In this document: piece after piece, positions 9,406-20,587 of the stretch
How the letters are laid out: every line of letters begins with the position of its first letter
How positions within the stretch are numbered: position 1 is the first letter of the stretch
From: Candidatus Binataceae bacterium
GTDB lineage: Bacteria > Desulfobacterota > Binatia > Binatales > Binataceae
Reading direction: 5' to 3'
Assembly: GCA_030038355.1 (NCBI GenBank)
Contig: JASHPB010000273.1
Location: 85,221 to 149,220 of the forward strand
Length of the DNA: 64,000 nucleotides
The notes under the pieces: generated by a model
Told to the model about the DNA's origin: nothing
The model's database searches: none
What the model saw: only the letters and a program-made list of their open reading frames with translations
Program-made: the position numbers and the translations under genes

Positions 9406-10203
9406 ATGCCCAATCAGGCGGCCGAGCACAAGCAACTCATCCGCGAAGAATTCACCCGCCAGGCCGACGCATTCGCCGCTTCGCCGACGATCAAGAACCC
9501 CGATCGTATCGCGATACTGGTCGATTCGGTCAATCCGGGCCCGACGACGCGCGTGCTCGAGATTGCGACGGGGCCGGGCCATATCGCGCTCGCGTTCGCG
9601 CCGCGATGCGGCGAAGTTGTGGGCATCGATCTCACCGCAGCTCCGCTCAAGATCGCCGAGCGGATGCGCGCCGAGCGCGGCATCATCAACGCCCGCTTCA
9701 TCCAGGGCGACGTCGAGGGCCGCTTGCCGTTCGAGGACGACGAATTCGACGCGGCGGTCTGCCGCTTTTCGTTCCATCACTTTCAGAATCCTGCCGCCGT
9801 GGCCCGTGAGATGGCGCGCGTATGCCGCGCCGGTGGGCGTCTTGTAGTCGAGGATATAGGAGCGAGCGAGCATCCCGAACGGGCCGCCTATCACAATAGG
9901 TTCGAGTTGCTGCGCGATACTTCGCACACCCGATTCCTCCCGCTGAGCGACTTGATCGCGATCATCGCGGCGGCCGGTCTCGAGATTTCGAGTGTCAGGA
10001 CCGACGACATCGCAAATCCCGTCGAGCGATGGCTCGCGACGAGCTACACACCTGATGACAAGGCGGCCGAAGTGCGCGCGATGATCGAGCGCGACATCCG
10101 CGAGGACTTAAGCGGCACTGACGCGAGGCGCATCAACGGCGAGCTCTACTTCACGCATCGCTCGGCGATTATCGTCGCGCGAAAACTCGCTCCGCGCGCG
10201 TAG
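9406..10203 (+). CDS. Class I SAM-dependent methyltransferase (UbiE/COQ5-type)
   Basis: The start is taken at MPNQAAEHK, which has an AGGAGAG Shine-Dalgarno. The SAM-binding motif VLEIATGPGHIA is present. The long upstream extension in the ORF track has no Shine-Dalgarno. Confidence 0.85.
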   Translation: MPNQAAEHKQLIREEFTRQADAFAASPTIKNPDRIAILVDSVNPGPTTRVLEIATGPGHIALAFAPRCGEVVGIDLTAAPLKIAERMRAERGIINARFIQGDVEGRLPFEDDEFDAAVCRFSFHHFQNPAAVAREMARVCRAGGRLVVEDIGASEHPERAAYHNRFELLRDTSHTRFLPLSDLIAIIAAAGLEISSVRTDDIANPVERWLATSYTPDDKAAEVRAMIERDIREDLSGTDARRINGELYFTHRSAIIVARKLAPRA

Positions 10204-10329
10204 TCGACTACTCTACTCGTTGTTGGAGTTCGCGCGCCAAATTGACATATTGGCCCGCGCCGCTCGACGGTTGGTGCTGGTGAAGGGGGAATGCGCGCCT
10301 GCCGAGAGCTTATCGACCGAGATCAGGAT

Positions 10330-10822
10330 GACGATACGGGACGGATGAATGAGGCTGGATACGCGCTGCTCCGAACGCACGAAGGCCGCATCCCGCACGC
10401 CTAAGACGATGCAAACGACCAGCCCGTCAATCCGGGGTGCACGTGTACGGAACGCTGACGCTGCCGGTAACCTATGGGCACACGGGCACGATGTCTATCC
10501 CGGTCTCACCAGCCGCAAGCAGCTCGGGTGCCCGTCAATGACGTCAACGCGGTGGTAGCCGAGATCAGCCGCCTGATCACAGCGACCTTGAATGAGAATC
10601 AGTGCTCGGCGTGCGTCTGCCTCACCTTCAATATCGGACCCACGACTTCTCCGGAAGCTCGGCGCTGCCAATCGGGGAGATTTGGCCGACGTGCTGGCCC
10701 ACATTGCTCTCTGGGATAAGACGACGGTCAACGGACACCTCGTGACGAGCCCCGGATTGCTAAACCGGCAAAACGCGGGCGATCGCACTCTGGAAAACCC
10801 CGATTGCCGGTCCTGCGAGTAG
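10330..10822 (+). pseudogene. Phage-type lysozyme (GH24) pseudogene with frameshifts
   Basis: Three consecutive plus frames carry collinear GH24 motifs. The first is LLRTHEGRIPHA followed by RGARVRNADAAGNLWAHGHDVYPGLT, which matches the fEGxRLxAYxDxxGxxTIGyGHT pattern. The second is NQCSACVCLTFNIGPTT, matching NQfdALvSFaFNvG. The third is DPRLLRKLGAANRGDLADVLAHIALWDKTTVNGHLVTSPGLLNRQ, matching STLLRKLNAGD...LRWdkAGGkvlpGLvrRR. The catalytic Glu position is substituted. Confidence 0.6.
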
Positions 10823-10867
10823 TTAAGGCTTCGGGACCTGTGAGGCGGCCGCTCTTAGGCAGACCCT

Positions 10868-11050
10868 CTAGAACAGGTAAGCAGGGGAGATCGACCCGAA
10901 CGCGTCCAGCAATAGCCGATCGATAGTTTGTCGCCGGCGAGGCCGCGGACACCGAAGGCCGAACAGCCGACTGTACGCCGACCTTATGAACCTGTTCAGT
11001 CGCTGACGCTGCGCTTGCTCGATTTCTGCCGCTTCAGTGATGGTAGTCAT
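10868..11050 (-). CDS. Small hypothetical protein (60 aa)
   Basis: ATG start with a GAGAGG Shine-Dalgarno 7 nt upstream, reading MTTITEAAEIEQAQRQRL. It sits inside the gene-poor island that holds the lysozyme remnant. Confidence 0.3.
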   Translation of the reverse strand: MTTITEAAEIEQAQRQRLNRFIRSAYSRLFGLRCPRPRRRQTIDRLLLDAFGSISPAYLF

Positions 11051-11171
11051 TTGGAAGCCTCTCTCGCCCTTCGTCTCTCACCTTCAAGGCGTAAAAAAGA
11101 CTTGAACAAAGATAGTTCCATGGAAATGAACGTCGATTTCGTGGAAGCTTCGCTACCCGGGAGCCCCCAAG

Positions 11172-12047
11172 TCACAATCGCTCCGCCATCCGCACCGCAC
11201 CTTCTCTCGGCGGAGCGTCGCGCCCCCGCTGACGAACCCATACCTGGGTAAATTCCACTCCAAGCAGCAGGATGAGCGCGGAGTAGTACGCCCACATCAG
11301 GAGCAGGGCGAGCGAGCCGGCGGCGCCGTAAGCGCTCGCCTTGCCCGCATGCGCAAGGTAAATCGCGATCAGGAATTTCCCGATCACGAACAACACGGCG
11401 ATAAACAGGCCGCCGATCCAGACATCAGTCCATGCGAGGCGCACGTCGGGAAGGACTTTCAAAATCGTCCCAAACAGAAACGCGAACATCACCAGCGACG
11501 CCACCATCTCGCCAGCGTGGGCTGCGCCCGCAAACGGCAGCATCCTGGCGAGGGCGGAAATCACGGAGCTCGCCGCCAGCGAAATCAGCGCGAGAATTCC
11601 AACCCCCACCAGCAGCAGGCCCGAGCGTACCCGCTTCATCGCGAAATGCCTGATGCCGGAGCCGACCACCTTAACCTTCCAGGCTTTGTTGAGGCACTGC
11701 TGGAGCTGCATCAGTACGCCGGTCGCGGAAACGATCAGCCCGATAATCCCAAGTGCGGTGGCGAGCAGTCCGCCGGTTCGATTGTTCGCGACGCCACTAA
11801 CCATGGTCTGGATTTGCCCGGCCGCTTGAGGTCCGATCGCGCCGCTCAAGCGGGCCTCGATCTCGCCACTCGCGGCTTTCGGACCGAGGACGAGGCCGGC
11901 GATGAAAATGATGATCAGAAGCAAGGAAGGGAGTGCGAAAAGCGTCGCGTAGGCCAACGCCGCCGCCATCGAGGGGCACTCATCACCGCTGAAATCGCGA
12001 AACACCTGTAGAACGAACTCGCGCGCAAGTTTGAGCATGTTGGTCAT
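11172..12047 (-). CDS. YihY/BrkB family inner-membrane protein
   Basis: A multi-pass membrane protein with a YihY-like N-terminus (ECPSMAAALAYATLFALPSLL). The start may be the second ATG, nine codons in, given the GGAG spacing. Confidence 0.85.
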   Translation of the reverse strand: MTNMLKLAREFVLQVFRDFSGDECPSMAAALAYATLFALPSLLLIIIFIAGLVLGPKAASGEIEARLSGAIGPQAAGQIQTMVSGVANNRTGGLLATALGIIGLIVSATGVLMQLQQCLNKAWKVKVVGSGIRHFAMKRVRSGLLLVGVGILALISLAASSVISALARMLPFAGAAHAGEMVASLVMFAFLFGTILKVLPDVRLAWTDVWIGGLFIAVLFVIGKFLIAIYLAHAGKASAYGAAGSLALLLMWAYYSALILLLGVEFTQVWVRQRGRDAPPREGAVRMAERL

Positions 12048-12328
12048 CTCCAGTGTTCAGCGATACTGAATCGCGTGACAGCGCCAGAAGGGAACAGCCG
12101 CAAGCTCGAACAATTCTGGAGCTCAGCTCAGTCAGGTAAATGAGCTTGGCGATCCAGAGGTCTCGCGTCGGCAGTAAAAAACAGGTCGGCGAGCATGGTC
12201 GCGCCGGTTACGAGTTCGCCGGCAAGGATGCTCTCGATACTTTCGTCCCAAAGCGCGCGCCGAAAGTCTGAATCGAGGGCGATGCGAATCTTAATAGTTC
12301 GCTTGAAGTTTTGTGTCGGCAGCAGGTT

Positions 12329-13507
12329 CTACTTCCTCTCAGAGAGCAGCGTCAGCACGCCGGAGTATTGCAGCAGGCCGGTCGCGCCGCCGACCGGGCC
12401 GATCTCGAAGCCCGTGAAAAAGCCGCCGAGCGCGATCGCGCCGAGCGTTCGCCGGATATATGCCGAGTCGTGCCCCGGCATGCCGTAAAGCCCTGCGCCC
12501 CGTGACACGCAATCGAAGTACAGCCCGAGCGCAGGCGGCGCCGGTATCCGCTCGGGTAGCTCTTCAAGCATCGCTTTAAGATCTTGCCGTGCCCGCGCGC
12601 CGTCGCGCAGCACTAAGCCGACCATGTCGCCGACCTTCGGCTGATGCGCCACCGCGATGACGCCGTGCTCCTTGCTGGTGCCGACGATATTGCGCACGAG
12701 GTAGCTGCCGCGCTCGAGCTTCTCCACGCCTGCCTTGAGCGGCACGGCGAGGAACACGAAGGTGAGCGCGCGGCGGAGGTCGCTCGCCAGCGGACCTGCT
12801 GCCTCGGCGAAGACCTCGAACGCCGGGCGCCCGTCGAGCTCGATCAATACGTTGTCGCGTGCCGCGGTGACCCGATGCGCAGCGCCGATCGGCGTGCAGG
12901 CGAGCGAGCTCGCGGTGGTGATATTGAATTCGCCCGCGAGCAGCATCCCCGCCACCGCGTTCGAGCTCACGACGTCGCCGCAGAACTGGAACGTTTCGCC
13001 GATTGTGCCGTCTTCGCTCGCGCCGCCGCCCGCGATCACGGCCTCGGGCACTTCCGCCTTCAGCGTTGCCAGAAACTGTTCCGCGTCGAGGTTGTAGGTA
13101 TCAGGGAAAACGCAGAGCAGGTTACTTGCGCCGAGGGACGGCCTAATCGCGCCAGCGATTTCGGTGGCGGCCTCGCGAGAGCGGCCACGCAGCGACGGGA
13201 CGAAAAAGCGTCGCGCAGTCAGCGCGTCGCCGCCGATCACGATCACGGCGAGCGCGTGTCCGCTCTCGACCTCCTGCTCGTTGGCGATCACGCCCATGCT
13301 GGAGCAGCCGGCGACTTCGCGCGTGCTGGCCTGCTCCGCGACCATCCGCAGGATCATCGGATACGCCGCTCCGTAGGCGCTTGTGGCGAAGCAGAGCGCG
13401 CCCTCGGCCCGGTCGAGTCCGGCCTGCGCGAGCGCAGCCGCAGTCGCCTCGCTGGCAGCAGTGCGCGGGTTCAACGCGCTCGAATTTCCGACTCCCGCAC
13501 GCAGCAT
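12329..13507 (-). CDS. FIST-domain sensory protein (FIST N plus FIST C)
   Basis: A 392-aa ORF. It begins 11 nt after the M20 peptidase stop, and a GAGG Shine-Dalgarno sits in that spacer. Confidence 0.8.
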   Translation of the reverse strand: MLRAGVGNSSALNPRTAASEATAAALAQAGLDRAEGALCFATSAYGAAYPMILRMVAEQASTREVAGCSSMGVIANEQEVESGHALAVIVIGGDALTARRFFVPSLRGRSREAATEIAGAIRPSLGASNLLCVFPDTYNLDAEQFLATLKAEVPEAVIAGGGASEDGTIGETFQFCGDVVSSNAVAGMLLAGEFNITTASSLACTPIGAAHRVTAARDNVLIELDGRPAFEVFAEAAGPLASDLRRALTFVFLAVPLKAGVEKLERGSYLVRNIVGTSKEHGVIAVAHQPKVGDMVGLVLRDGARARQDLKAMLEELPERIPAPPALGLYFDCVSRGAGLYGMPGHDSAYIRRTLGAIALGGFFTGFEIGPVGGATGLLQYSGVLTLLSERK

Positions 13508-13517
13508 CCTAGCCTCG

Positions 13518-14993
13518 CTACGAACGCTCGCCGAAAATCTCCAGCAGCTCGACCATCCGCTTGATTCCCTCGCTTAGCTCGTTGACTCCGATACTCTCAT
13601 TCAGTCCATGGATACTCTCGGCTTCCGGGGCCGCGAGCTCAACCGGCATGAAGCCATAAGCGATGATCTTCTTCTGGCGGAAGAAATGACAGTCGGTGAA
13701 TCCGGGTAGCAGCAGCGGAGCGACAGGACACTTGTCGGTGTCTCGCGCCAGGGTTTCAATCGCCGTCATCAACTCCGAGCGCGAAGGCGACGACACGGGA
13801 GAAAAGTTCAGCAGCACCTCGACCTTGATCGAATCGTCGCCGATGACCTGCTTCAGGCTCTTGATGAACGCCTGTGGGTCGGAGCCGGGGAGCAGGCGGC
13901 AATCCAGTTCGGCATAGGCAGTTGCCGTCAGCATGTTCGTCTTCGGACTCCCCGAGAGAACGGTCGGTGTGATCGTATCGCGTATCTGCGCGTTCTGAAA
14001 CGGCACCTCGATAAACTTCTTCAGAAACTCGGGGTCCTTCAGCGAAGTATCGAGGTTGTAATACTCCTTGGGGCCGTGCTCGAGCTCCGCTTGCGTGCGA
14101 TATACGTCCTGTACAGGGCCAAGGATCCGAATCGGCGTTTGATAGGCGATCACCTTGTCCAGCGCGCGCACGAGCTTGGTCACTGCGGTGTCCGGCGGCG
14201 GCGTCGAAGGATGTCCCGCGGGGCCTTGAGCAGTGAGGCGAAGCCAAAGTGGCGTCTTCTCGGTCACCGACACGGCATAAAATCTCTTGCCGTTGTCGAG
14301 ATCGCGAATACCGCCGCCCTCATTCAAGAGAAAACCGGCATCCGCATAAACGTTGTGTTCGTGATCGACGAACCATCCCGCGCCGTTCTGGCCGCCGGCC
14401 TCTTCGTCGCCAGTGGCGACGAACAGCACATCGCGATTGAGCAGGATTCCGGCGCGCTTGATTGCAAGCATCGCCATCAGCTCCATCACGCCCATGCCCT
14501 TGTCATCGATCGCGCCACGGCCCCAGACCTTGCCGTCCTTCACCAGTCCTGAGAACGGCGGCACTTTCCATTCCTTGGCGACCGCAGGCACCACATCCAT
14601 GTGACTGAGAAGAATCAGAGCCTTGCTGTGTGTGCCGATCCCGCGCAGCCGCGCCGCGACGATCCCGCGCCCGGGCTGCGGCTCCCAGGTTGTCGCCGGG
14701 ATTCCATTTTCGAGGAATACATCCTTGAGCATCTTGGCCGCGGGCAATTCGTCCCCAGGAGGATTGCTCGTATTGATCTGGATGTACTTGGCAAGTAGGT
14801 TGGTTGCCTCCTGCGTGACTTTGTCCCAGTCAATTTCTTTCGGCGGCGGAGCCTTGCGCACCAGCGACGGATGCCTCGGAGTCACGGAATTGTCCTGCTC
14901 GGCAAGTGCTCGCGACGATGCGAAGCAAATCATCGCCGTGGCAATGGCAAGGAGTGCGATGAATGGCCGCGTCGGCAATCGAGCAGCCTTCAT
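13518..14993 (-). CDS. M20/M25/M40 family metallopeptidase, secreted
   Basis: It has a signal peptide. Typical M20 motifs are present: LSHMDVVP, GAIDDKG and GDEEAGG. The start overlaps the E2 stop by 4 nt. Confidence 0.85.
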   Translation of the reverse strand: MKAARLPTRPFIALLAIATAMICFASSRALAEQDNSVTPRHPSLVRKAPPPKEIDWDKVTQEATNLLAKYIQINTSNPPGDELPAAKMLKDVFLENGIPATTWEPQPGRGIVAARLRGIGTHSKALILLSHMDVVPAVAKEWKVPPFSGLVKDGKVWGRGAIDDKGMGVMELMAMLAIKRAGILLNRDVLFVATGDEEAGGQNGAGWFVDHEHNVYADAGFLLNEGGGIRDLDNGKRFYAVSVTEKTPLWLRLTAQGPAGHPSTPPPDTAVTKLVRALDKVIAYQTPIRILGPVQDVYRTQAELEHGPKEYYNLDTSLKDPEFLKKFIEVPFQNAQIRDTITPTVLSGSPKTNMLTATAYAELDCRLLPGSDPQAFIKSLKQVIGDDSIKVEVLLNFSPVSSPSRSELMTAIETLARDTDKCPVAPLLLPGFTDCHFFRQKKIIAYGFMPVELAAPEAESIHGLNESIGVNELSEGIKRMVELLEIFGERS

Positions 14994-16225
14994 CGCTCGC
15001 CGTAGTTCAGGATTTCGATCACAGTCTGAAGGAACTCTGCCGCAGGCGCCCCGTCGATCACGCGATGGTCAAATGTGAGGCTTAAGGTGAGCATCGCACG
15101 GCGGGTGATTTCGCCGCGATAGATTGCGGGCTTTTCGACGATTCGGCCGACGCCTAGGATTCCGGTCTCGCCAGGGTTTAAAATCGGCGTGAACGCGTCG
15201 ACACCGTACGTCCCGAGGTTGCTGATCGTGAACGTGCCGCCGTGCACGTCTTCGAGCCGAAGCCTCGATGCGTGCGCCTTCTCGGCGAGCGCCCGGCTCT
15301 CGACCGCGATCTCGCGGAGCGCGAGGCGATCAGCACTGCGAATCACGGGTACGATCAAACCTTCGTCGAGCGCGACGGCGATTCCGATATTGACCTCGGG
15401 GACTGAAATGATCACTTCGCCCTCGAGCCTAGCGTTCATCCGCGGATGCTTCAGCAGCGCGCGGGCGCACGCATGAACCAGCATGTCGGTGTATGTGAAA
15501 TCGAAATCGCGGGTGAGACGAGCGCGAAGCTCGGTCGCGGGCGTCACATCGGCTTCGGATGCGATCGTCAGCTGCGCGGATGTTTGCAAACTCTGATGCA
15601 TGCGCTCGGCAATCACCTTGCGCGCGCCACGCATCGCCGTACGCTTCGCGCCGGGCGCGGCAGTAGATGCGCGCGCCTGCGGCGCGGGCGCCGTCTTCGC
15701 TGCGGCCGGCGCCGCGCCTTCGCTGGCGGCGTGCTCGACGTCCTCGCGCGTCACGCGGCCACCGGGTCCTGTACCCGCAACGCGCGCGAGATCGACTCCG
15801 AGCTCTGCCGCGAGCTTGCGCGCGATAGGGCTCACGGCGCGGCGTGAGCCCACGCCTTGCGCTGTTGCAGAGGCGTTAGCCCCCGCATACGCAGCTGCAT
15901 GAGGGCGATGTGCGGCATGAGCATGATTGGAGACGGGCGAGGTCGCGGCGCGCCGATAGCGCGCCGCGACCTCGCCCACGTCCTCCCCGGGCTCGGCAAT
16001 CACGGCAACTGCGACGCCGCACTCGACGATCGCACCTTCATCGAAGAGCGCGACGGCGAGCGTGCCGCCCGCGGGCGATTCGACTTCGTAGAGAATCTTC
16101 TCGGTCTCGACTTCGTAGAGTGGCTCGCCCTGTTTGACGCTCTCACCCGGCGACTTGAAGAAGCGCTGGATCGTCCCCTCGTGCATCGTGAGCCCAAACT
16201 TGGGCATGGTCACTTCAACCGCCAC
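14990..16225 (-). CDS. 2-oxo-acid dehydrogenase E2 component (dihydrolipoamide acyltransferase)
   Basis: A lipoyl domain (EVETEKILYEVESPAGG) is followed by an E3-binding segment and then the catalytic domain with DHRVIDG. The inter-domain linker is unusually rich in His and Ala. Confidence 0.9.
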   Translation of the reverse strand: MAVEVTMPKFGLTMHEGTIQRFFKSPGESVKQGEPLYEVETEKILYEVESPAGGTLAVALFDEGAIVECGVAVAVIAEPGEDVGEVAARYRRAATSPVSNHAHAAHRPHAAAYAGANASATAQGVGSRRAVSPIARKLAAELGVDLARVAGTGPGGRVTREDVEHAASEGAAPAAAKTAPAPQARASTAAPGAKRTAMRGARKVIAERMHQSLQTSAQLTIASEADVTPATELRARLTRDFDFTYTDMLVHACARALLKHPRMNARLEGEVIISVPEVNIGIAVALDEGLIVPVIRSADRLALREIAVESRALAEKAHASRLRLEDVHGGTFTISNLGTYGVDAFTPILNPGETGILGVGRIVEKPAIYRGEITRRAMLTLSLTFDHRVIDGAPAAEFLQTVIEILNYGER

Positions 16226-16339
16226 AACTGGCCGCTTCCTTTCTTTCTATGCCATCGCTCGAATTGCGCCCTCGAGGGATTGATAGCTTGGCAATGCACT
16301 CATTGTTTCACGTTCGCCACAGTGTCAATTTCCATCCCA

Positions 16340-16527
16340 TCATCCTGAGCGCAGGCTTCCGAGCGAAGGATCTCGCGCGGTGCTTGCGCGCAATTTCTGC
16401 GCGAACAATTGAGCGTTTGGCGGATACTCGCGTGTCGGCGGTCGTCGAGCGTTGGTTGCCCCACCGACAAACCCGGGCGGGCGAGACCCTTCGACTCCGC
16501 TCGACGTCTCGCTTCGCTCAGGATGAC
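16340..16527. repeat. MITE-like repeat, copy 1, with 12-bp perfect terminal inverted repeats
   Basis: TCATCCTGAGCG at 16340-16351 is matched by CGCTCAGGATGA at 16515-16526. The interior holds a GCGAGAC/GTCTCGC stem and the palindrome TTGCGCGCAA. It is related to the second copy at 42143-42298. Confidence 0.5.
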
Positions 16528-16588
16528 CCAAGCCACGAATCCCGCGATCTCTGTCGAATCGTTCGTCCAATGAGTAGCTCCAGACTCT

Positions 16589-17560
16589 TCAGCGGCCCAT
16601 CAGGTCGCGAATCGCCGCTTCGATCCGATCCTCGCCGGGAATCGCCGCCTTCTCGAGCGGCGGGCTGAATGGGATCGGCACGTCGAGCGCGGTGACGCGT
16701 TTGATCGGCGCGTCGAGATGATCGAAGCCCTGCTCGGCGATCAGCGCGGCGATATCCGCTGCAGCGCCGCCACGTAGATGACCCTCGTCGGCGATCACGA
16801 CGCGGTTGGTCTTTTCAACCGACTCGAGCAGCGCCGTTTCATCGAGCGGAATCAGCGTGCGCGGATCGATAACCTCGACCGAGATACTTTCCTTGACGAG
16901 TTTGTCGGCGACCCTGAGCGCCTTCGGCACCATCGCTCCAATCGCGATCACAGTGACATTGTCGCCGGCGCGTTTAATGGCGGCTTTTCCGAGCGGTACG
17001 AGATGGTCACCCTCGGGGATTTCCTCGCGAAGCCGCCCCAGCGCGCCGTGCTCGAAGACGATCACGGGATTGTCGTCGCGAATCGCGCTCTTTAAGAGTC
17101 CTTTCATATCCGACGGGCTCGAGGGCACGACCAACTTGAGGCCAGGGACGCTCAAGAATTGTGCATAGACGGTTTCCGAGTGCTGCGCCGCCGCGCCGCC
17201 CATCGCGCCGTATACCGCGCGGAACGTTATCGGCAGGCTCGCCTGGCCGCCCGACATGTAGCGGAGCTTCGCCGCCTGATTACATACCTGATCGAACGCG
17301 CAATAGAAGAAGCTCGCGAACTCGACCTCGCAAATCGGGCGTGCTCCCGCCATCGCAGCGCCCACCGCCGCGCCGACGAAGCCCGCCTCCGAGATCGGAG
17401 TATTGCGCACGCGCGACGGCCCGAACTTGTCGATGAGTCCCTTGGTCGCGCCGAACGCGGCCAGCACGACGTCCTCGCCCATCAGGAAGGTGTTCGGGTC
17501 GCGCCTCATCTCTTCCGAAAGAGCCTGGTTGATCGCCTGGATAAAATTGGTTTGCGGCAT
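16589..17560 (-). CDS. 2-oxo-acid dehydrogenase E1 component, beta subunit
   Basis: A 323-aa ORF typical of the transketolase-like E1 beta family (MPQTNFIQAINQALSEEMRRDPNTFLMGEDV). Confidence 0.9.
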   Translation of the reverse strand: MPQTNFIQAINQALSEEMRRDPNTFLMGEDVVLAAFGATKGLIDKFGPSRVRNTPISEAGFVGAAVGAAMAGARPICEVEFASFFYCAFDQVCNQAAKLRYMSGGQASLPITFRAVYGAMGGAAAQHSETVYAQFLSVPGLKLVVPSSPSDMKGLLKSAIRDDNPVIVFEHGALGRLREEIPEGDHLVPLGKAAIKRAGDNVTVIAIGAMVPKALRVADKLVKESISVEVIDPRTLIPLDETALLESVEKTNRVVIADEGHLRGGAAADIAALIAEQGFDHLDAPIKRVTALDVPIPFSPPLEKAAIPGEDRIEAAIRDLMGR

Positions 17561-17576
17561 GATCGTTACCTCCGCG

Positions 17577-18550
17577 CTAGGCGAACACGTCGTCGGTTAC
17601 TTCGCTCGCGGCGGGCAGCTCGCTCGAGCGTGCGAACGCGATCGCCTCGTCGAGTTCCTTCTCCGTCTCGGTGACGATTCGCTGCAGCTCGCCGGCGTCG
17701 ATCTTCTTATTCTCAGCGCACCATTTCTCGAAGCGGATGAGAGGGCACTTGAGCTTCCACGAATCGACTTCTTCCTTGCTGCGATACGCGTATTCACCGA
17801 GGATCGCGGCCTCGCCGACGACGTGACCTTCCCACCGATAGGTCTTGCACTCGATCAGCGTGGGACCTTCGCCGGCGCGGGCGCGTGCTACAGCTTCGCT
17901 CGCAACCTTGAAGACTTCGAGCACGTCGTTGCCGTCGACGATCACGCCCGGCAGGTCGTGGGCGCGAGCGCGCACTGCGATGTCGCTGACTGAAGTGACC
18001 GTGCGCATCGGAGTGAACTCACCGAAGCCGTTGTTCTCGCAAACGAAGATGACGGGTAGTTTCCACACCGACGCGAGATTGAGCGACTCGTGGAAGGTGC
18101 CCTCGTTCGAGGCGCCGTCGCCGAAGAAGCACGCGGTCACGTCGTCGCGGCCCGCGACCTGCGCCGCGAGCGCGGAGCCCGTCGCGATCGGGAGGCCGGC
18201 GCCGACGATTCCGTTTGCGCCCAAAATGCCGAGCGAAAAATCGACGATATGCATCGAGCCGCCCTTGCCTTTGCAGTAGCCGCCGCGCTTGCCGTAAATC
18301 TCCGCCATCATCTTGTCGAGGCGCCCGCCCTTGGCAATCAGATGACCGTGGCCGCGATGGGTCGAGGTGATGCGATCGGTTTTGCGGAGCGCTGCACAGA
18401 TTCCGGCGGCGCTTGCCTCCTCGCCAATCGACACGTGGACGAAGCCAGGAATTTCGTTGGCGGTCGCGAGGTCGCGGATTTTCGATTCGAAATGACGGAT
18501 CCGCTGCATCGAGCGGTACATCTCGAGCAGCTTGTCCTTTGTAATATCCA
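17577..18550 (-). CDS. 2-oxo-acid dehydrogenase E1 component, alpha subunit (TPP-dependent)
   Basis: The start is at MDITKDKLLEMY, which has a GAGGAGG Shine-Dalgarno 6 nt upstream. The TPP motif GDGASNEG is present. The 55-codon upstream extension in the ORF track has no Shine-Dalgarno. Confidence 0.9.
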
Positions 18551-18664
18551 TTGGCTGCCTCCTCGAGGGCGCGTGGCGACGGCGTTTAGCTCCAGCGAGC
18601 CGAAAACTATTCCGCTTCGCTGAAACCGTCAAACGCGGTTCGTTCGCGAGCGCCGCGATGCTAG

Positions 18665-19390
18665 ATGAAATCCGTGGCCCTCGTGGCGACAACATCGAAG
18701 CCGCTATCGAAAACACGGGCCAAGCATCCCCCGCTCACGCCCGCGACGATCGGCAGCGTGATGAAAGTTCTGCGTCGCGAAGCACCCAAGTGGAATGCGC
18801 CGATCGTGAGCTTCATCGCTGTGCAGTCGCGCGATCCATTCAAGACGCTGATTGGGTGCATCCTGAGCCTGCGGACTAAGGATGAAACCACCGCGCTCGC
18901 AGCGGCGCGGCTCTTCGAGCGGGCAGCGACTCCAGAGGCGATGCTCGCGCTGAGCCGCAAGACTCTTGAGCGCCTCATCTATCCGGTGGGCTTCTATCGC
19001 ACCAAGGCGCACGTTATTCGCGGAATCTGTCGCGACCTTATCGACAAGTTCGAAGGCCTGGTGCCCGATGACCTCAGTGCGCTGCTCACGCTGAAGGGCG
19101 TCGGGCGCAAGACAGCGAACCTGGTGGTGACCGAAGCATTCGGCAAGCCGGGGATCTGCGTCGACACGCATGTGCATCGCATTTCGAATCGATGGGGCAT
19201 CGTGAAGACGAAAACGCCCGAGCAGACCGAGATGGCGCTGCGCGAGAGTTTGCCACGGCGGCATTGGCTCGAATACAACGGCATACTTGTAGCCTTCGGG
19301 CAGACAATTTGTCATCCAACGTCGCCCTGGTGCTCACGATGCAGCATCGCCGAGATTTGCCCGCAAATCGGAGTAACGCGCTCGCGCTGA
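18665..19390 (+). CDS. nth: Endonuclease III (HhH-GPD base-excision glycosylase with a 4Fe-4S cluster)
   Basis: The HhH-GPD motif ([15 protein letters not shown]) is present. A C-terminal Cys cluster reads [17 protein letters not shown]. The true start may be the MKVLRR Met at about 18761. Confidence 0.85.
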
Positions 19391-19402
19391 AGGAGAATCG
19401 CG

Positions 19403-20587
19403 ATGGCTGGTCCACTTGATGGATTTCGGATTGTCGACGTGACGCAGATGGTTTCCGGGCCGATGGCCACGATGATCCTCGCCGACCAGGGCGCCGACGT
19501 GATCAAAGTTGAGCCGCCCGGCTCGGGCGACCTGACGCGCGCGCTGGCCGCCTCGAAGCGTGCGATGTCGCCGATGTTCGCGGTCATCAATCGGAACAAG
19601 AAGTCGATCGTGATCGATCTGAAGAAGCCGCGCGGCGTCGGGCTGCTGAAGGACCTGGTACGTGGTGCGGACCTGTTCGTGCAGAACTTCCGGCCGGGGG
19701 CCGCCGAGCGGATGGGAATCGGATACGAAGCTTTGGCCGCGGTTAATCCTGAACTCGTGTACGTTTCGATAAGCGGCTTCGGCGAACGAGGACCTTACAT
19801 CCACAAGAGAGTTTACGACCCCGTTGTGCAGGCGCTGTCGGGCCTCGCCGCTATCCAGGCCGACCAGGCAACGGGCCGCCCGCGAATGATGCGGCTCATT
19901 GTGCCCGACAAGGTGACCGCGCTCACTGCCGCGCAGGCGATGACGGCGGCGCTGCTCGGGCGCGAGCGCACGCACAAAGGGCAGCATCTCAAGCTCGCGA
20001 TGCTCGACGCGGTGGTCGCATTTCAGTGGCCCGAGGGGATGACGGCCTACACGTTCAGGAGCAGCGAGCCACCCGCGGTCGTGCGCCAGACCGTGCGCGA
20101 CCTCGTTTACCAAACCGCCGACGGTTACATCACGGTCGGCGCCGTCTCGGAGGTCGAATGGCAGGCACTCGCACGCGCCATTGGGCATCCGGAGTGGCTC
20201 GACGATCCGCGCTTCAGCACGCCAGCTGCGCGCGTGCGTCACACCGAGGATCGCCTGGAGCTTACGGCGCAGGCGCTCAAGGAGAAACCATCGGCCGAAT
20301 GGATCAAGCGCTTCGACGCGGCGCAGGTTCCATGCGCGCCGATTCTGAGCCGCGCCGATATTCTCACCGATCCGCAGATCGCCGCAAACGAGCTTATCGT
20401 CGAGGTCGAGCATCCCGCCGTCGGTGTGATGCGTCAGCCGCGCCCGGCCGCGCGCTTCGATGGCGCATCGACGAAGATCCGGAGCGCTGCGCCCGTTCTC
20501 GGTGAGCACACCGACCAAGTGCTGCGAGACGCGGGTTTCGATGCGTCGGCGATCAAACGGCTCCGTGCCGCGGACGTGATCGCGTAA
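19403..20587 (+). CDS. CoA-transferase family III (CaiB/BaiF) protein
   Basis: AAGGAGAA Shine-Dalgarno. The N-terminus is typical of the family (LDGFRIVDVTQMVSGPMATMILADQGADVIKVEPP). Confidence 0.9.
   Translation: MAGPLDGFRIVDVTQMVSGPMATMILADQGADVIKVEPPGSGDLTRALAASKRAMSPMFAVINRNKKSIVIDLKKPRGVGLLKDLVRGADLFVQNFRPGAAERMGIGYEALAAVNPELVYVSISGFGERGPYIHKRVYDPVVQALSGLAAIQADQATGRPRMMRLIVPDKVTALTAAQAMTAALLGRERTHKGQHLKLAMLDAVVAFQWPEGMTAYTFRSSEPPAVVRQTVRDLVYQTADGYITVGAVSEVEWQALARAIGHPEWLDDPRFSTPAARVRHTEDRLELTAQALKEKPSAEWIKRFDAAQVPCAPILSRADILTDPQIAANELIVEVEHPAVGVMRQPRPAARFDGASTKIRSAAPVLGEHTDQVLRDAGFDASAIKRLRAADVIA

What the first reader, a model, noticed from the sequence alone, without database searches (positions are those of the whole stretch)
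10204..11170. Gene-poor island of about 1 kb containing a decayed phage-type (GH24) lysozyme
No intact gene of 60 aa or more with homology lies between the methyltransferase and yihY genes. Three successive plus frames spell collinear GH24 lysozyme motifs, from the EG..L.AY..GHT block through NQ..AL.SF.FN.G to LRKLNAGD...LRWDK..G. There are at least two frameshifts and the catalytic Glu is lost.

This looks like the last trace of a prophage or endolysin gene, which marks a former integration site. A 60-aa ORF with a good Shine-Dalgarno on the opposite strand (10868-11050) may be a surviving cargo gene.
Basis: partly seen in the sequence, partly recalled or inferred. Interest (0 to 1): 0.5.

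Follow-up and report, generated by a model that had tools for sequence, protein, structure and literature searches.

The report
Decayed chromosomal lysozyme gene, not prophage scar
The stretch holds a dead copy of a phage-type (GH24) lysozyme gene that is still intact at the same chromosomal spot in related bacteria, next to a small conserved gene of unknown function; it is an ordinary case of gene loss, not the footprint of a lost prophage.

Summary
The GH24 lysozyme pseudogene is real. It spans window 10345-10826 (+). Against an intact ortholog (L001) it has one TAC->TAA nonsense codon, six frame-shifting indels and one in-frame 6-bp duplication. Its ancestral-frame translation is 72% identical to the intact protein P0001 over 160 aa.

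The prophage-scar interpretation is not supported.
- Five related metagenomic contigs share the flanking genes at 88-95% amino-acid identity.
- In four of them (L001, L004, L005, L172) the same single lysozyme gene is intact at this locus. Among three of these copies it is under purifying selection (dN/dS 0.11-0.14).
- In the fifth (L092) it has decayed independently, through different lesions.
- Nothing phage-like lies nearby: no integrase, tRNA, att repeats, phage structural genes or GC anomaly.
- The closest phage endolysins are at most 40% identical, against 51-88% among chromosomal copies.

Two details in the finding are wrong. The catalytic Glu codon is retained (GAA, 10381-10383). The 60-aa minus-strand ORF (10868-11050) does have homologues: a 13-member family of small proteins with an invariant FGSISPAYLF C-terminus and no known domain.

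The "gene-poor island" is therefore fully accounted for. Interest is low.

The parts
9406..10203 (+). Class I SAM-dependent methyltransferase, the left flank (probable true start ATG 9406). It is a conserved neighbour of the lysozyme in relatives.
   Evidence: Pfam Methyltransf_11/25/31. It is 92%, 90% and 90% identical to the methyltransferases in L001, L092 and L172.
10240..10254 (+). Conserved upstream block AATTGACATATTGGC, containing TTGACA at 10242-10247. It may be the -35 region of the former lysozyme promoter (inference only).
   Evidence: Identical in L001 and nearly so in L092 in the DNA alignments. The consensus promoter scan did not call it.
10345..10826 (+). GH24 (PF00959) lysozyme pseudogene. 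The ancestral reading frame runs through seven segments: 10345-10431 (frame of 10204), 10432-10488 (10206), 10489-10509 (10205), 10510-10638 (10204), 10639-10666 (10206), 10667-10779 (10205) and 10781-10826 (10206, with the stop TAG at 10824-10826).
   Evidence: DNA alignment to the intact ortholog L001, frame tracing, six-frame HMM search, Pfam and PHROG hits, and 72% identity to P0001.
10381..10383 (+). Retained catalytic Glu codon (GAA, in the motif THEG). The catalytic Asp codon at 10408-10410 is also retained.
   Evidence: Read directly from the sequence. This Glu is invariant in the family alignment.
10402..10404 (+). Nonsense mutation: TAA where all intact homologues have an invariant Tyr (TAC in L001, L092, L004 and L005).
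10431..10432 (+). 1-bp deletion (CAAT-CCGG against CAATCCCGG).
10453..10464 (+). In-frame 6-bp tandem duplication (ACGCTG ACGCTG). Together with adjacent substitutions it disrupts the invariant TLTIGYGH motif that holds the catalytic Thr region.
10488..10489 (+). 1-bp deletion (GGCA-CGATG).
10509..10510 (+). 7-bp deletion. It removes the invariant Trp of the L-T-W-T-Q motif.
10638..10639 (+). 1-bp deletion just after the FNIG motif.
10666..10667 (+). 7-bp deletion (the SSAL[QL]AN region).
10780..10780 (+). 1-bp insertion near the 3' end.
10868..11050 (-). Intact 60-aa gene convergent with the pseudogene. It belongs to a small uncharacterised protein family (N-terminus MTSNI.., an Arg-rich centre, invariant C-terminus LL..FGSISPAYLF).
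   Evidence: Homologues in L001, L004, L005 and L172. A 13-protein family with no Pfam, NCBIfam or PHROG hit. Differences from L001 in the C-terminal codons are all synonymous. dN/dS is 0.26-0.57.
11051..11136 (-). Strongly conserved ~85-nt region upstream of the small gene: GTTCA / TGAAC / GTTCA half-sites, TTTTTTACGCCTTGGAAGTGAGAGA, and a purine-rich SD-like element. Presumably its promoter, operator and leader.
   Evidence: Four-way alignment. No Rfam hit. Only weak structure support.
11172..12047 (-). yihY/BrkB-family membrane protein, the right flank. It lies within a ~1-kb segment (about 11137-12177) that is present in the window and L172 but absent in L004, L005 and L092.
   Evidence: Pfam PF03631 and TIGR00765. 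Junction alignments. L172 yihY is 92% identical.

Best explanation
Window 10345-10826 is a unitary pseudogene of a stand-alone, chromosomally inherited GH24 muramidase gene. The ancestor of this organism and its close relatives carried a single ~164-aa lysozyme gene. It had no signal peptide or membrane segment. It lay just downstream of a SAM-methyltransferase gene and convergent with a 60-aa gene.

The gene was kept by selection in several lineages and became dispensable in this one. It then picked up a Tyr->stop mutation, six frame-shifting indels, a 6-bp duplication and many replacements at invariant residues. No active enzyme can be made.

The neighbouring 60-aa gene and its conserved upstream region are intact and probably still work on their own. 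The locus is a hot spot of small-scale gene gain and loss, not a prophage attachment site.

Shown: homology, the lesions, synteny, selection in relatives, and independent decay in a second lineage. Inferred: that the loss is neutral decay after relaxed selection, that the small gene still functions, and that intact copies are active muramidases.
For: Homology and lesions:
- Pfam, PHROG and six-frame HMM hits.
- 66-72% identity to the intact P0001.
- Lesion map against the ortholog.
- 22 of 62 family-invariant positions are substituted or deleted.

Orthology:
- L001 has ACAD (95% identical), methyltransferase (92%) and an intact lysozyme.
- L004 and L005 have an intact lysozyme, the small ORF, and FIST (92% and 91%) and M20 (88%).
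- L172 has ACAD, methyltransferase, two extra genes, an intact lysozyme, the small ORF and yihY (92%).

Selection:
- dN/dS among intact copies is 0.11-0.14. The window branch carries about 2-3 times more nonsynonymous change.
- L092 has the same flanks (90-95%) but a lysozyme decayed by different indels plus a 3' deletion.

No phage context:
- All neighbours within about 10 kb are metabolic.
- No tRNA, no Rfam hit, flat GC of 0.60-0.62, and only short chance repeats.
- Other family members sit in housekeeping contexts.
- The best phage matches are 38-40% identical.

Not a sequencing artefact: the flanking genes in the same assembly are full-length and unbroken.
Against: - The GH24 fold is typical of phage endolysins, so an ancient phage origin for the whole bacterial clade cannot be excluded.
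- The locus is structurally variable between relatives (yihY present or absent; two extra genes in L172), as insertion hot spots are.
- All comparison loci are short metagenomic contigs of unknown taxonomy, so orthology rests on flanking-gene identity rather than whole genomes.
- dS between lysozyme copies (0.7-1.6) is near saturation, so the timing of inactivation is imprecise.
- No expression or activity data exist for any family member.
Confidence: 0.85

Rival explanations
1. Prophage scar. The lysozyme is the last surviving gene of a prophage that once integrated between the methyltransferase and yihY genes, and the 60-aa ORF is leftover cargo.
For: - PF00959 is the 'Phage_lysozyme' family and PHROG endolysin families match.
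- The locus varies in gene content between relatives.
- A lysozyme without a signal peptide is the classical endolysin design (read from the sequences).
Against: - No integrase, att repeat, tRNA, phage structural gene or GC shift.
- Relatives carry just the single intact gene at the same place, under purifying selection.
- The nearest phage endolysins are at most 40% identical, while chromosomal copies in non-phage contexts are 51-88% identical.
- Distant members of the small-ORF family are not linked to a lysozyme.
Confidence: 0.08
2. Assembly or sequencing artefact. The gene is really intact and the frameshifts are errors.
For: One of the 1-bp deletions lies in a short C run (CCC->CC at 10431). 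The source of the window and its read technology are unknown.
Against: - Eight separate lesions fall within 480 bp. They include two 7-bp deletions, a 6-bp duplication and a TAC->TAA substitution.
- 18 replacements and 4 deletions hit positions invariant in 12 homologues.
- dN is raised on this branch.
- The flanking ACAD, methyltransferase, yihY, FIST and M20 genes in the same assembly are unbroken.
Confidence: 0.03
3. The remnant still has a function, for example a truncated peptide, a regulatory or antisense RNA, or a cis element for the neighbouring small gene.
For: Conservation relative to intact copies is still fairly high (about 80% DNA identity). The convergent small gene ends only 41 bp away.
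Against: - L092 has deleted the 3' part together with the small gene.
- No Rfam match even at E<=1.
- No terminator-like or promoter-like sites in the remnant.
- The residual conservation is what a fairly recent pseudogene would show.
Confidence: 0.03

Closest known systems
Phage GH24 endolysins (P22 gp19 lysozyme, PDB 2anv; Acinetobacter phage endolysins 8app and 6et6; T4-like Acinetobacter phage ZZ1 endolysin)
   Same: Same Pfam family (PF00959) across the full domain. Intact relatives keep the Glu/Asp/Thr catalytic positions. They are single-domain proteins of about 160 aa with no secretion signal.
   Different: - Only 38-40% identical.
- The bacterial clade has its own signature, AYDDANDQPVNPG, which is an insertion between the catalytic Asp and Thr, and two invariant Cys.
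- It lies in non-phage chromosomal contexts with no holin or spanin nearby.
- The window copy is a pseudogene.
Cryptic-prophage lysozymes of E. coli (e.g. RrrD of DLP12, PDB 4zpu)
   Same: A GH24 lysozyme retained in a bacterial chromosome after phage decay. There is a sequence match, E 5.6e-11.
   Different: From my own knowledge, those genes still lie inside recognisable defective prophages with neighbouring lysis genes. Here neither this genome nor five relatives carry any other phage gene at the locus.
SpmX, a GH24 phage lysin co-opted as a Caulobacterales localisation factor (bioRxiv 10.1101/418723; NCBIfam NF051871)
   Same: A precedent for a phage-type GH24 domain kept as a vertically inherited host gene under selection. 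There is a weak NCBIfam match of 65 bits against a cutoff of 700.
   Different: SpmX has extra intermediate and transmembrane domains. The proteins here are bare catalytic domains and fall far below the SpmX cutoff, so they are not members.
Gene-transfer-agent endolysin BgtA (NCBIfam NF058676)
   Same: It is the best NCBIfam hit. It is also a chromosomal GH24 endolysin encoded away from any phage genome.
   Different: The score is 83 bits against a cutoff of 315, so it is not an equivalog. No GTA genes are in the window neighbourhood.

Membership tests
GH24 / Pfam PF00959 Phage_lysozyme (by descent) | Significant full-length match to the family profile | tested here: met
   The conceptual translation scores 51.4 bits (cutoff 22.3) over profile positions 3-124 of 125. 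An unbiased six-frame HMM search gives collinear fragments at E 1e-12 to 1e-13.
GH24 / Pfam PF00959 Phage_lysozyme (by descent) | Catalytic Glu and Asp (T4L Glu11 and Asp20 equivalents) | tested here: met
   The GAA codon at 10381-10383 and the GAT codon at 10408-10410 are retained and align with invariant E and D. The Thr-containing TLTIGYGH motif is disrupted by the 6-bp duplication.
GH24 / Pfam PF00959 Phage_lysozyme (as a functional enzyme) | Uninterrupted open reading frame | tested here: not met
   One nonsense codon and six frame-shifting indels. It is a pseudogene.
Prophage remnant / former integration site | Other phage genes (integrase, terminase, capsid, tail, holin) in the neighbourhood | tested here: not met
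   A Pfam scan of about 20 neighbouring ORFs from window 1097 to 20587 finds only metabolic and membrane proteins. The small ORF has no PHROG hit.
Prophage remnant / former integration site | att-like direct repeats, or a tRNA/tmRNA at the boundary | tested here: not met
   Only 12-15-nt chance repeats, none flanking the interval. No tRNA or tmRNA anywhere in the 64-kb window.
Prophage remnant / former integration site | Compositional difference from the flanks | tested here: not met
   GC is 0.60-0.62 across 10150-11050, against 0.57-0.67 in the flanks.
Prophage remnant / former integration site | An empty site or a full prophage at the orthologous locus in relatives | tested here: not met
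   Relatives carry the same single lysozyme gene, intact in L001, L004, L005 and L172 and decayed in L092. None has a prophage or a clean empty site.
SpmX (NF051871) and BaGTA endolysin BgtA (NF058676) | Score above the NCBIfam equivalog cutoff | tested here: not met
   65 bits against 700, and 83 bits against 315, for the intact ortholog P0001.

The most novel reading that the evidence does not exclude
The intact relatives may define an undescribed clade of domesticated GH24 muramidases. They are signal-less, stand-alone and chromosomal, carry the AYDDANDQPVNPG signature and two invariant Cys, and are under purifying selection in soil bacteria. Their cellular role and route to the cell wall are unknown, and they are repeatedly lost.

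In this lineage the gene is paired with a new 60-aa protein family (invariant FGSISPAYLF C-terminus). That gene is driven from an unusually conserved upstream region with GTTCA/TGAAC half-sites, which could reflect stress-type (e.g. SOS-like) regulation of a cell-wall or lysis function. The window itself would only be a decayed example.
Probability: 0.15. Interest if true: 0.45.

Novelty: new member of a known kind. Interest (0 to 1): 0.15.

Why it matters
For annotation, 10345-10826 should be marked as a GH24 lysozyme pseudogene and 10868-11050 as a conserved hypothetical small protein gene. The region should not be flagged as a prophage remnant or integration site.

More generally, it is a clean example of a 'phage-type' lysozyme behaving as an ordinary, vertically inherited host gene. 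It is dispensable in some lineages, with two independent decays among six related loci. A Pfam 'Phage_' name alone is therefore weak evidence for a prophage. The biological significance beyond that is small.

Tried and rejected
- **T4 lysozyme as a probe.** It gave no significant hit. P22 lysozyme hit only the central NQ..FNIG block (E 1e-5). Family-specific homologues were needed.
- **Exact-protein look-up of the window's yihY.** Not on record, so the source organism could not be identified. Taxonomy remains unknown. The closest named genomes carrying the lysozyme clade are 'uncultured delta proteobacterium' MAGs and a Candidatus Cybelea MAG (74-75% identity to P0001). They show no synteny with the window.
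- **att repeats.** The only exact repeat touching the region is CGCTGACGCTGC at 10453-10464 and 11001-11012. It is 12 nt long, lies inside the interval and includes the 6-bp duplication, so I rejected it as chance.
- **Promoter and terminator scan.** Nothing in the interval.
- **Rfam at gathering and at E<=1.** Nothing.
- **Lysozyme plus small ORF as an obligate two-gene module.** Rejected, because distant small-ORF homologues (L173-L175) have no lysozyme neighbour, and lysozyme homologues outside the close clade have no small ORF.
- **AlphaFold2 of the small protein.** Only a low-confidence two-helix model (pLDDT 65, pTM 0.26), so I did not run a fold search.
- **RNA structure in the conserved leader.** Weak (-12 kcal/mol, few covarying pairs), so no claim is made.
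- **First reconstruction.** It used a wrong-frame stretch (RLLRKLGA). I corrected it by tracing the frame against the ortholog.

Full report
**What is in the sequence**

The interval between the stop of a SAM-methyltransferase gene (10203, + strand) and the stop of a yihY/BrkB-family gene (11172, - strand) is 968 bp. Its GC content (0.60-0.62) matches the flanks.

GH24 lysozyme motifs occur in collinear order but in different frames.
- A hand-assembled conceptual peptide matches Pfam PF00959 (Phage_lysozyme) over profile positions 3-124 of 125, at E 1.8e-13 and 51.4 bits against a cutoff of 22.3. It also matches PHROG endolysin families.
- That peptide was assembled by eye, so I ran an unbiased control. 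I built an HMM only from 12 intact homologues and searched every stop-to-stop segment of all six frames of the 64-kb window.
- The four best hits of the whole window all lie here, in collinear order. They cover HMM positions 3-22, 32-54, 60-104 (E 2.7e-12) and 112-151 (E 3.4e-13).

**Closest relatives and the lesion map**

A search of the 5.8-billion-protein collection returned 12 intact lysozymes of 154-182 aa, at 51-66% identity and E down to 1e-48. They share a distinctive signature, EGC(I/V)L.AYDDANDQPVNPG...GTLTIGYGHTG...NQFSAF.C..FNIG...SSAL..AN...LWDKT.

The contig of the best hit (L001) carries an acyl-CoA dehydrogenase and a methyltransferase that are 95% and 92% identical to those of the window. 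The intact lysozyme follows directly downstream, so it is an ortholog at the same locus.

Nucleotide alignment of the window to L001, with the L001 reading frame traced through it, gives these lesions:
- TAC->TAA at 10402-10404, at an invariant Tyr.
- 1-bp deletions at 10431/2, 10488/9 and 10638/9.
- 7-bp deletions at 10509/10 and 10666/7.
- A 1-bp insertion at 10780.
- An in-frame 6-bp tandem duplication (ACGCTG x2, 10453-10464) inside the invariant TLTIGYGH motif.

The ancestral frame therefore changes six times, and the original stop is TAG at 10824-10826. The frame-corrected translation is 72% identical to P0001 over 160 aa.

Of 62 positions invariant in the 12 intact proteins, my first reconstruction keeps only 40. 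That reconstruction contains a short wrong-frame stretch, so a few of the 22 mismatches may come from it.

**Is it a sequencing artefact?**

Unlikely. The lesions include two 7-bp deletions, a duplication and a substitution to a stop codon. Many invariant residues are replaced. A three-taxon comparison puts about 2-3 times more nonsynonymous change on the window branch. The five flanking genes in the same assembly are full-length and 88-95% identical to their orthologs.

**Is it a prophage scar?**

The evidence points the other way. I recovered six related versions of the locus, counting the window:

| Locus | Gene order |
|---|---|
| Window | ACAD, MTase, decayed lysozyme, small ORF, yihY, FIST, M20 |
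| L001 | ACAD, MTase, lysozyme, small ORF (cut by contig end) |
| L004 | MTase 3' end, lysozyme, small ORF, FIST, M20 |
| L005 | lysozyme, small ORF, FIST |
| L172 | ACAD, MTase, FAD-monooxygenase, 251-aa ORF, lysozyme, small ORF, yihY |
| L092 | DUF1329, ACAD, MTase, decayed lysozyme, FIST, M20 |

- In four relatives the lysozyme is intact. Among the three copies compared (L001, L004, L005) dN/dS is 0.11-0.14, so it is a selected host gene.
- In L092 it has decayed independently. There are at least four frame-shifting indels, none of them shared with the window, and the first ATG is lost. Everything 3' of the FNIG motif is deleted together with the small ORF.
- None of these loci contains any phage gene. 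The roughly 20 kb around the finding in the window (ORFs from 1097 to 20587) also encodes only metabolic or membrane proteins.
- There is no tRNA or tmRNA, no Rfam element and no flanking direct repeat beyond 12-15-nt chance matches.
- More distant members of the lysozyme clade also sit alone in housekeeping neighbourhoods. Examples are a position between an HD-domain protein and gamma-glutamyltranspeptidase/YebC/RuvCA on a 4.9-Mb contig, and positions next to GHMP kinase, an Lhr helicase or an amidase.
- The nearest sequences in 50,697 phage genomes are 38% identical. The nearest in IMG/VR contigs are 40% identical, although that scan is pattern-limited.

An ultimate phage origin of the clade is plausible but ancient. 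What decayed here is a domesticated chromosomal gene, not the tail end of a recently resident prophage.

**The small ORF**

The ORF at 10868-11050 (-) is a real gene.
- Homologues lie in the same convergent position in L001, L004, L005 and L172.
- A profile search finds 13 proteins, all unannotated. They share the N-terminus MTSNI.., an Arg-rich centre and the invariant C-terminus LL..FGSISPAYLF.
- Over the C-terminal codons, the window and L001 differ only at synonymous positions. Overall dN/dS is 0.26-0.57.
- It has no Pfam, NCBIfam or PHROG match. AlphaFold2 gives only a low-confidence two-helix model.
- Distant members (L173-L175) are not next to a lysozyme, and lysozyme homologues outside the close clade lack it. 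The pairing is therefore lineage-specific, not an obligate module and not 'phage cargo'.
- The pseudogene took eight lesions in about 480 bp, so about three would be expected in 183 bp under neutrality. Finding none (Poisson P about 0.05) hints that the small gene is still under selection. This is an inference.
- About 85 nt upstream of its start codon (11051-11136) are more conserved than much of its coding region. This stretch includes GTTCA/TGAAC/GTTCA half-sites and an SD-like purine run. Its meaning is unresolved.

**Accounting for the 'island'**

| Coordinates | Content |
|---|---|
| 10204-10344 | Former lysozyme upstream region, with a conserved AATTGACATATTGGC block |
| 10345-10826 | Lysozyme pseudogene |
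| 10827-10867 | 41-bp spacer |
| 10868-11050 | Small gene |
| 11051-11171 | Its conserved upstream region, running to the yihY stop |

Nothing is left unexplained apart from the functions of the small protein and of the intact lysozyme clade.

**Comparison with known systems**

By descent the remnant belongs to GH24/PF00959. As an enzyme it fails the test of an intact ORF.
- It resembles cryptic-prophage lysozymes such as E. coli RrrD (sequence match), but without the surrounding prophage.
- It resembles SpmX in concept, as a phage lysin co-opted as a host gene (bioRxiv 10.1101/418723, found). It lacks SpmX's extra domains and scores far below the NCBIfam cutoffs for both SpmX and the Bartonella GTA endolysin.
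- The intact proteins begin only about 11 residues before the catalytic Glu and show no hydrophobic N-terminal segment. This is read from the sequences. How such an enzyme would reach peptidoglycan is unknown.

**Verdict**

The interpretation needs correcting: this is a unitary pseudogene of a vertically inherited stand-alone lysozyme gene, not a prophage scar. The finding is ordinary gene decay and I score it low. The only mildly novel threads are the uncharacterised small-protein family with its conserved leader, and the signal-less chromosomal GH24 clade that is repeatedly lost.

Noticed in passing
window 11137-12177 (contains yihY, 11172-12047, - strand): The yihY/BrkB-family gene lies in a ~1-kb segment that is polymorphic among close relatives. 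It is present in the window and in L172 (92% aa identity). In L004 and L005 it is replaced by about 260-300 bp of unrelated sequence, and it is absent in L092. No flanking repeats were seen at the junctions.
   Followed up: partly
window 11051-11136 (- strand); also L005:765-850, L004:1026-1110, L172:585-667: The ~85 nt upstream of the 60-aa gene are very strongly conserved. They hold three GTTCA/TGAAC half-sites (a perfect TGAAC-N6-GTTCA palindrome in L004 and L005; N7 with one mismatch in the window) and the block TTTTTTACGCCTTGGAAGTGAGAGA. This could be an operator or promoter, or a leader RNA. There is no Rfam match and only weak predicted structure.
   Followed up: partly
L092:6861-7282: A second, independent pseudogenisation of the same lysozyme in a related metagenomic contig. 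Its frameshifts are different, the start codon is lost, and a deletion removes the 3' ~40% of the gene plus the small ORF up to the FIST gene stop.
   Followed up: yes
L172:1397-3796: In one relative, two extra genes sit between the methyltransferase and the intact lysozyme. One is a 530-aa FAD-dependent monooxygenase. The other is a 251-aa ORF with no Pfam hit, 48 bp from the lysozyme on the same strand. The methyltransferase-FIST interval is a hot spot for small gene gains and losses.
   Followed up: no
window 12178-12328: The intergenic stretch between yihY and the FIST gene is well conserved with L005 (1116-1279) but not with L004. It overlaps short ORFs (e.g. 12140-12271 +, 43 aa). Its nature is unknown.
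   Followed up: no
P0001-P0012 (alignment A3) and loci L002, L088, L090: The lysozyme clade has no signal peptide, SAR or transmembrane segment and no adjacent holin-like gene. It has two invariant cysteines and an insertion (ANDQPVNPG...) between the catalytic Asp and Thr. How a cytoplasmic stand-alone muramidase is used by these bacteria is unexplained.
   Followed up: partly
window 9181-10203: The longest ORF for the methyltransferase (340 aa, TTG start at 9181) overlaps the divergent ACAD gene (8121-9248, - strand). Orthologs are called at 265-270 aa, so the true start is probably the ATG at 9406.
   Followed up: partly
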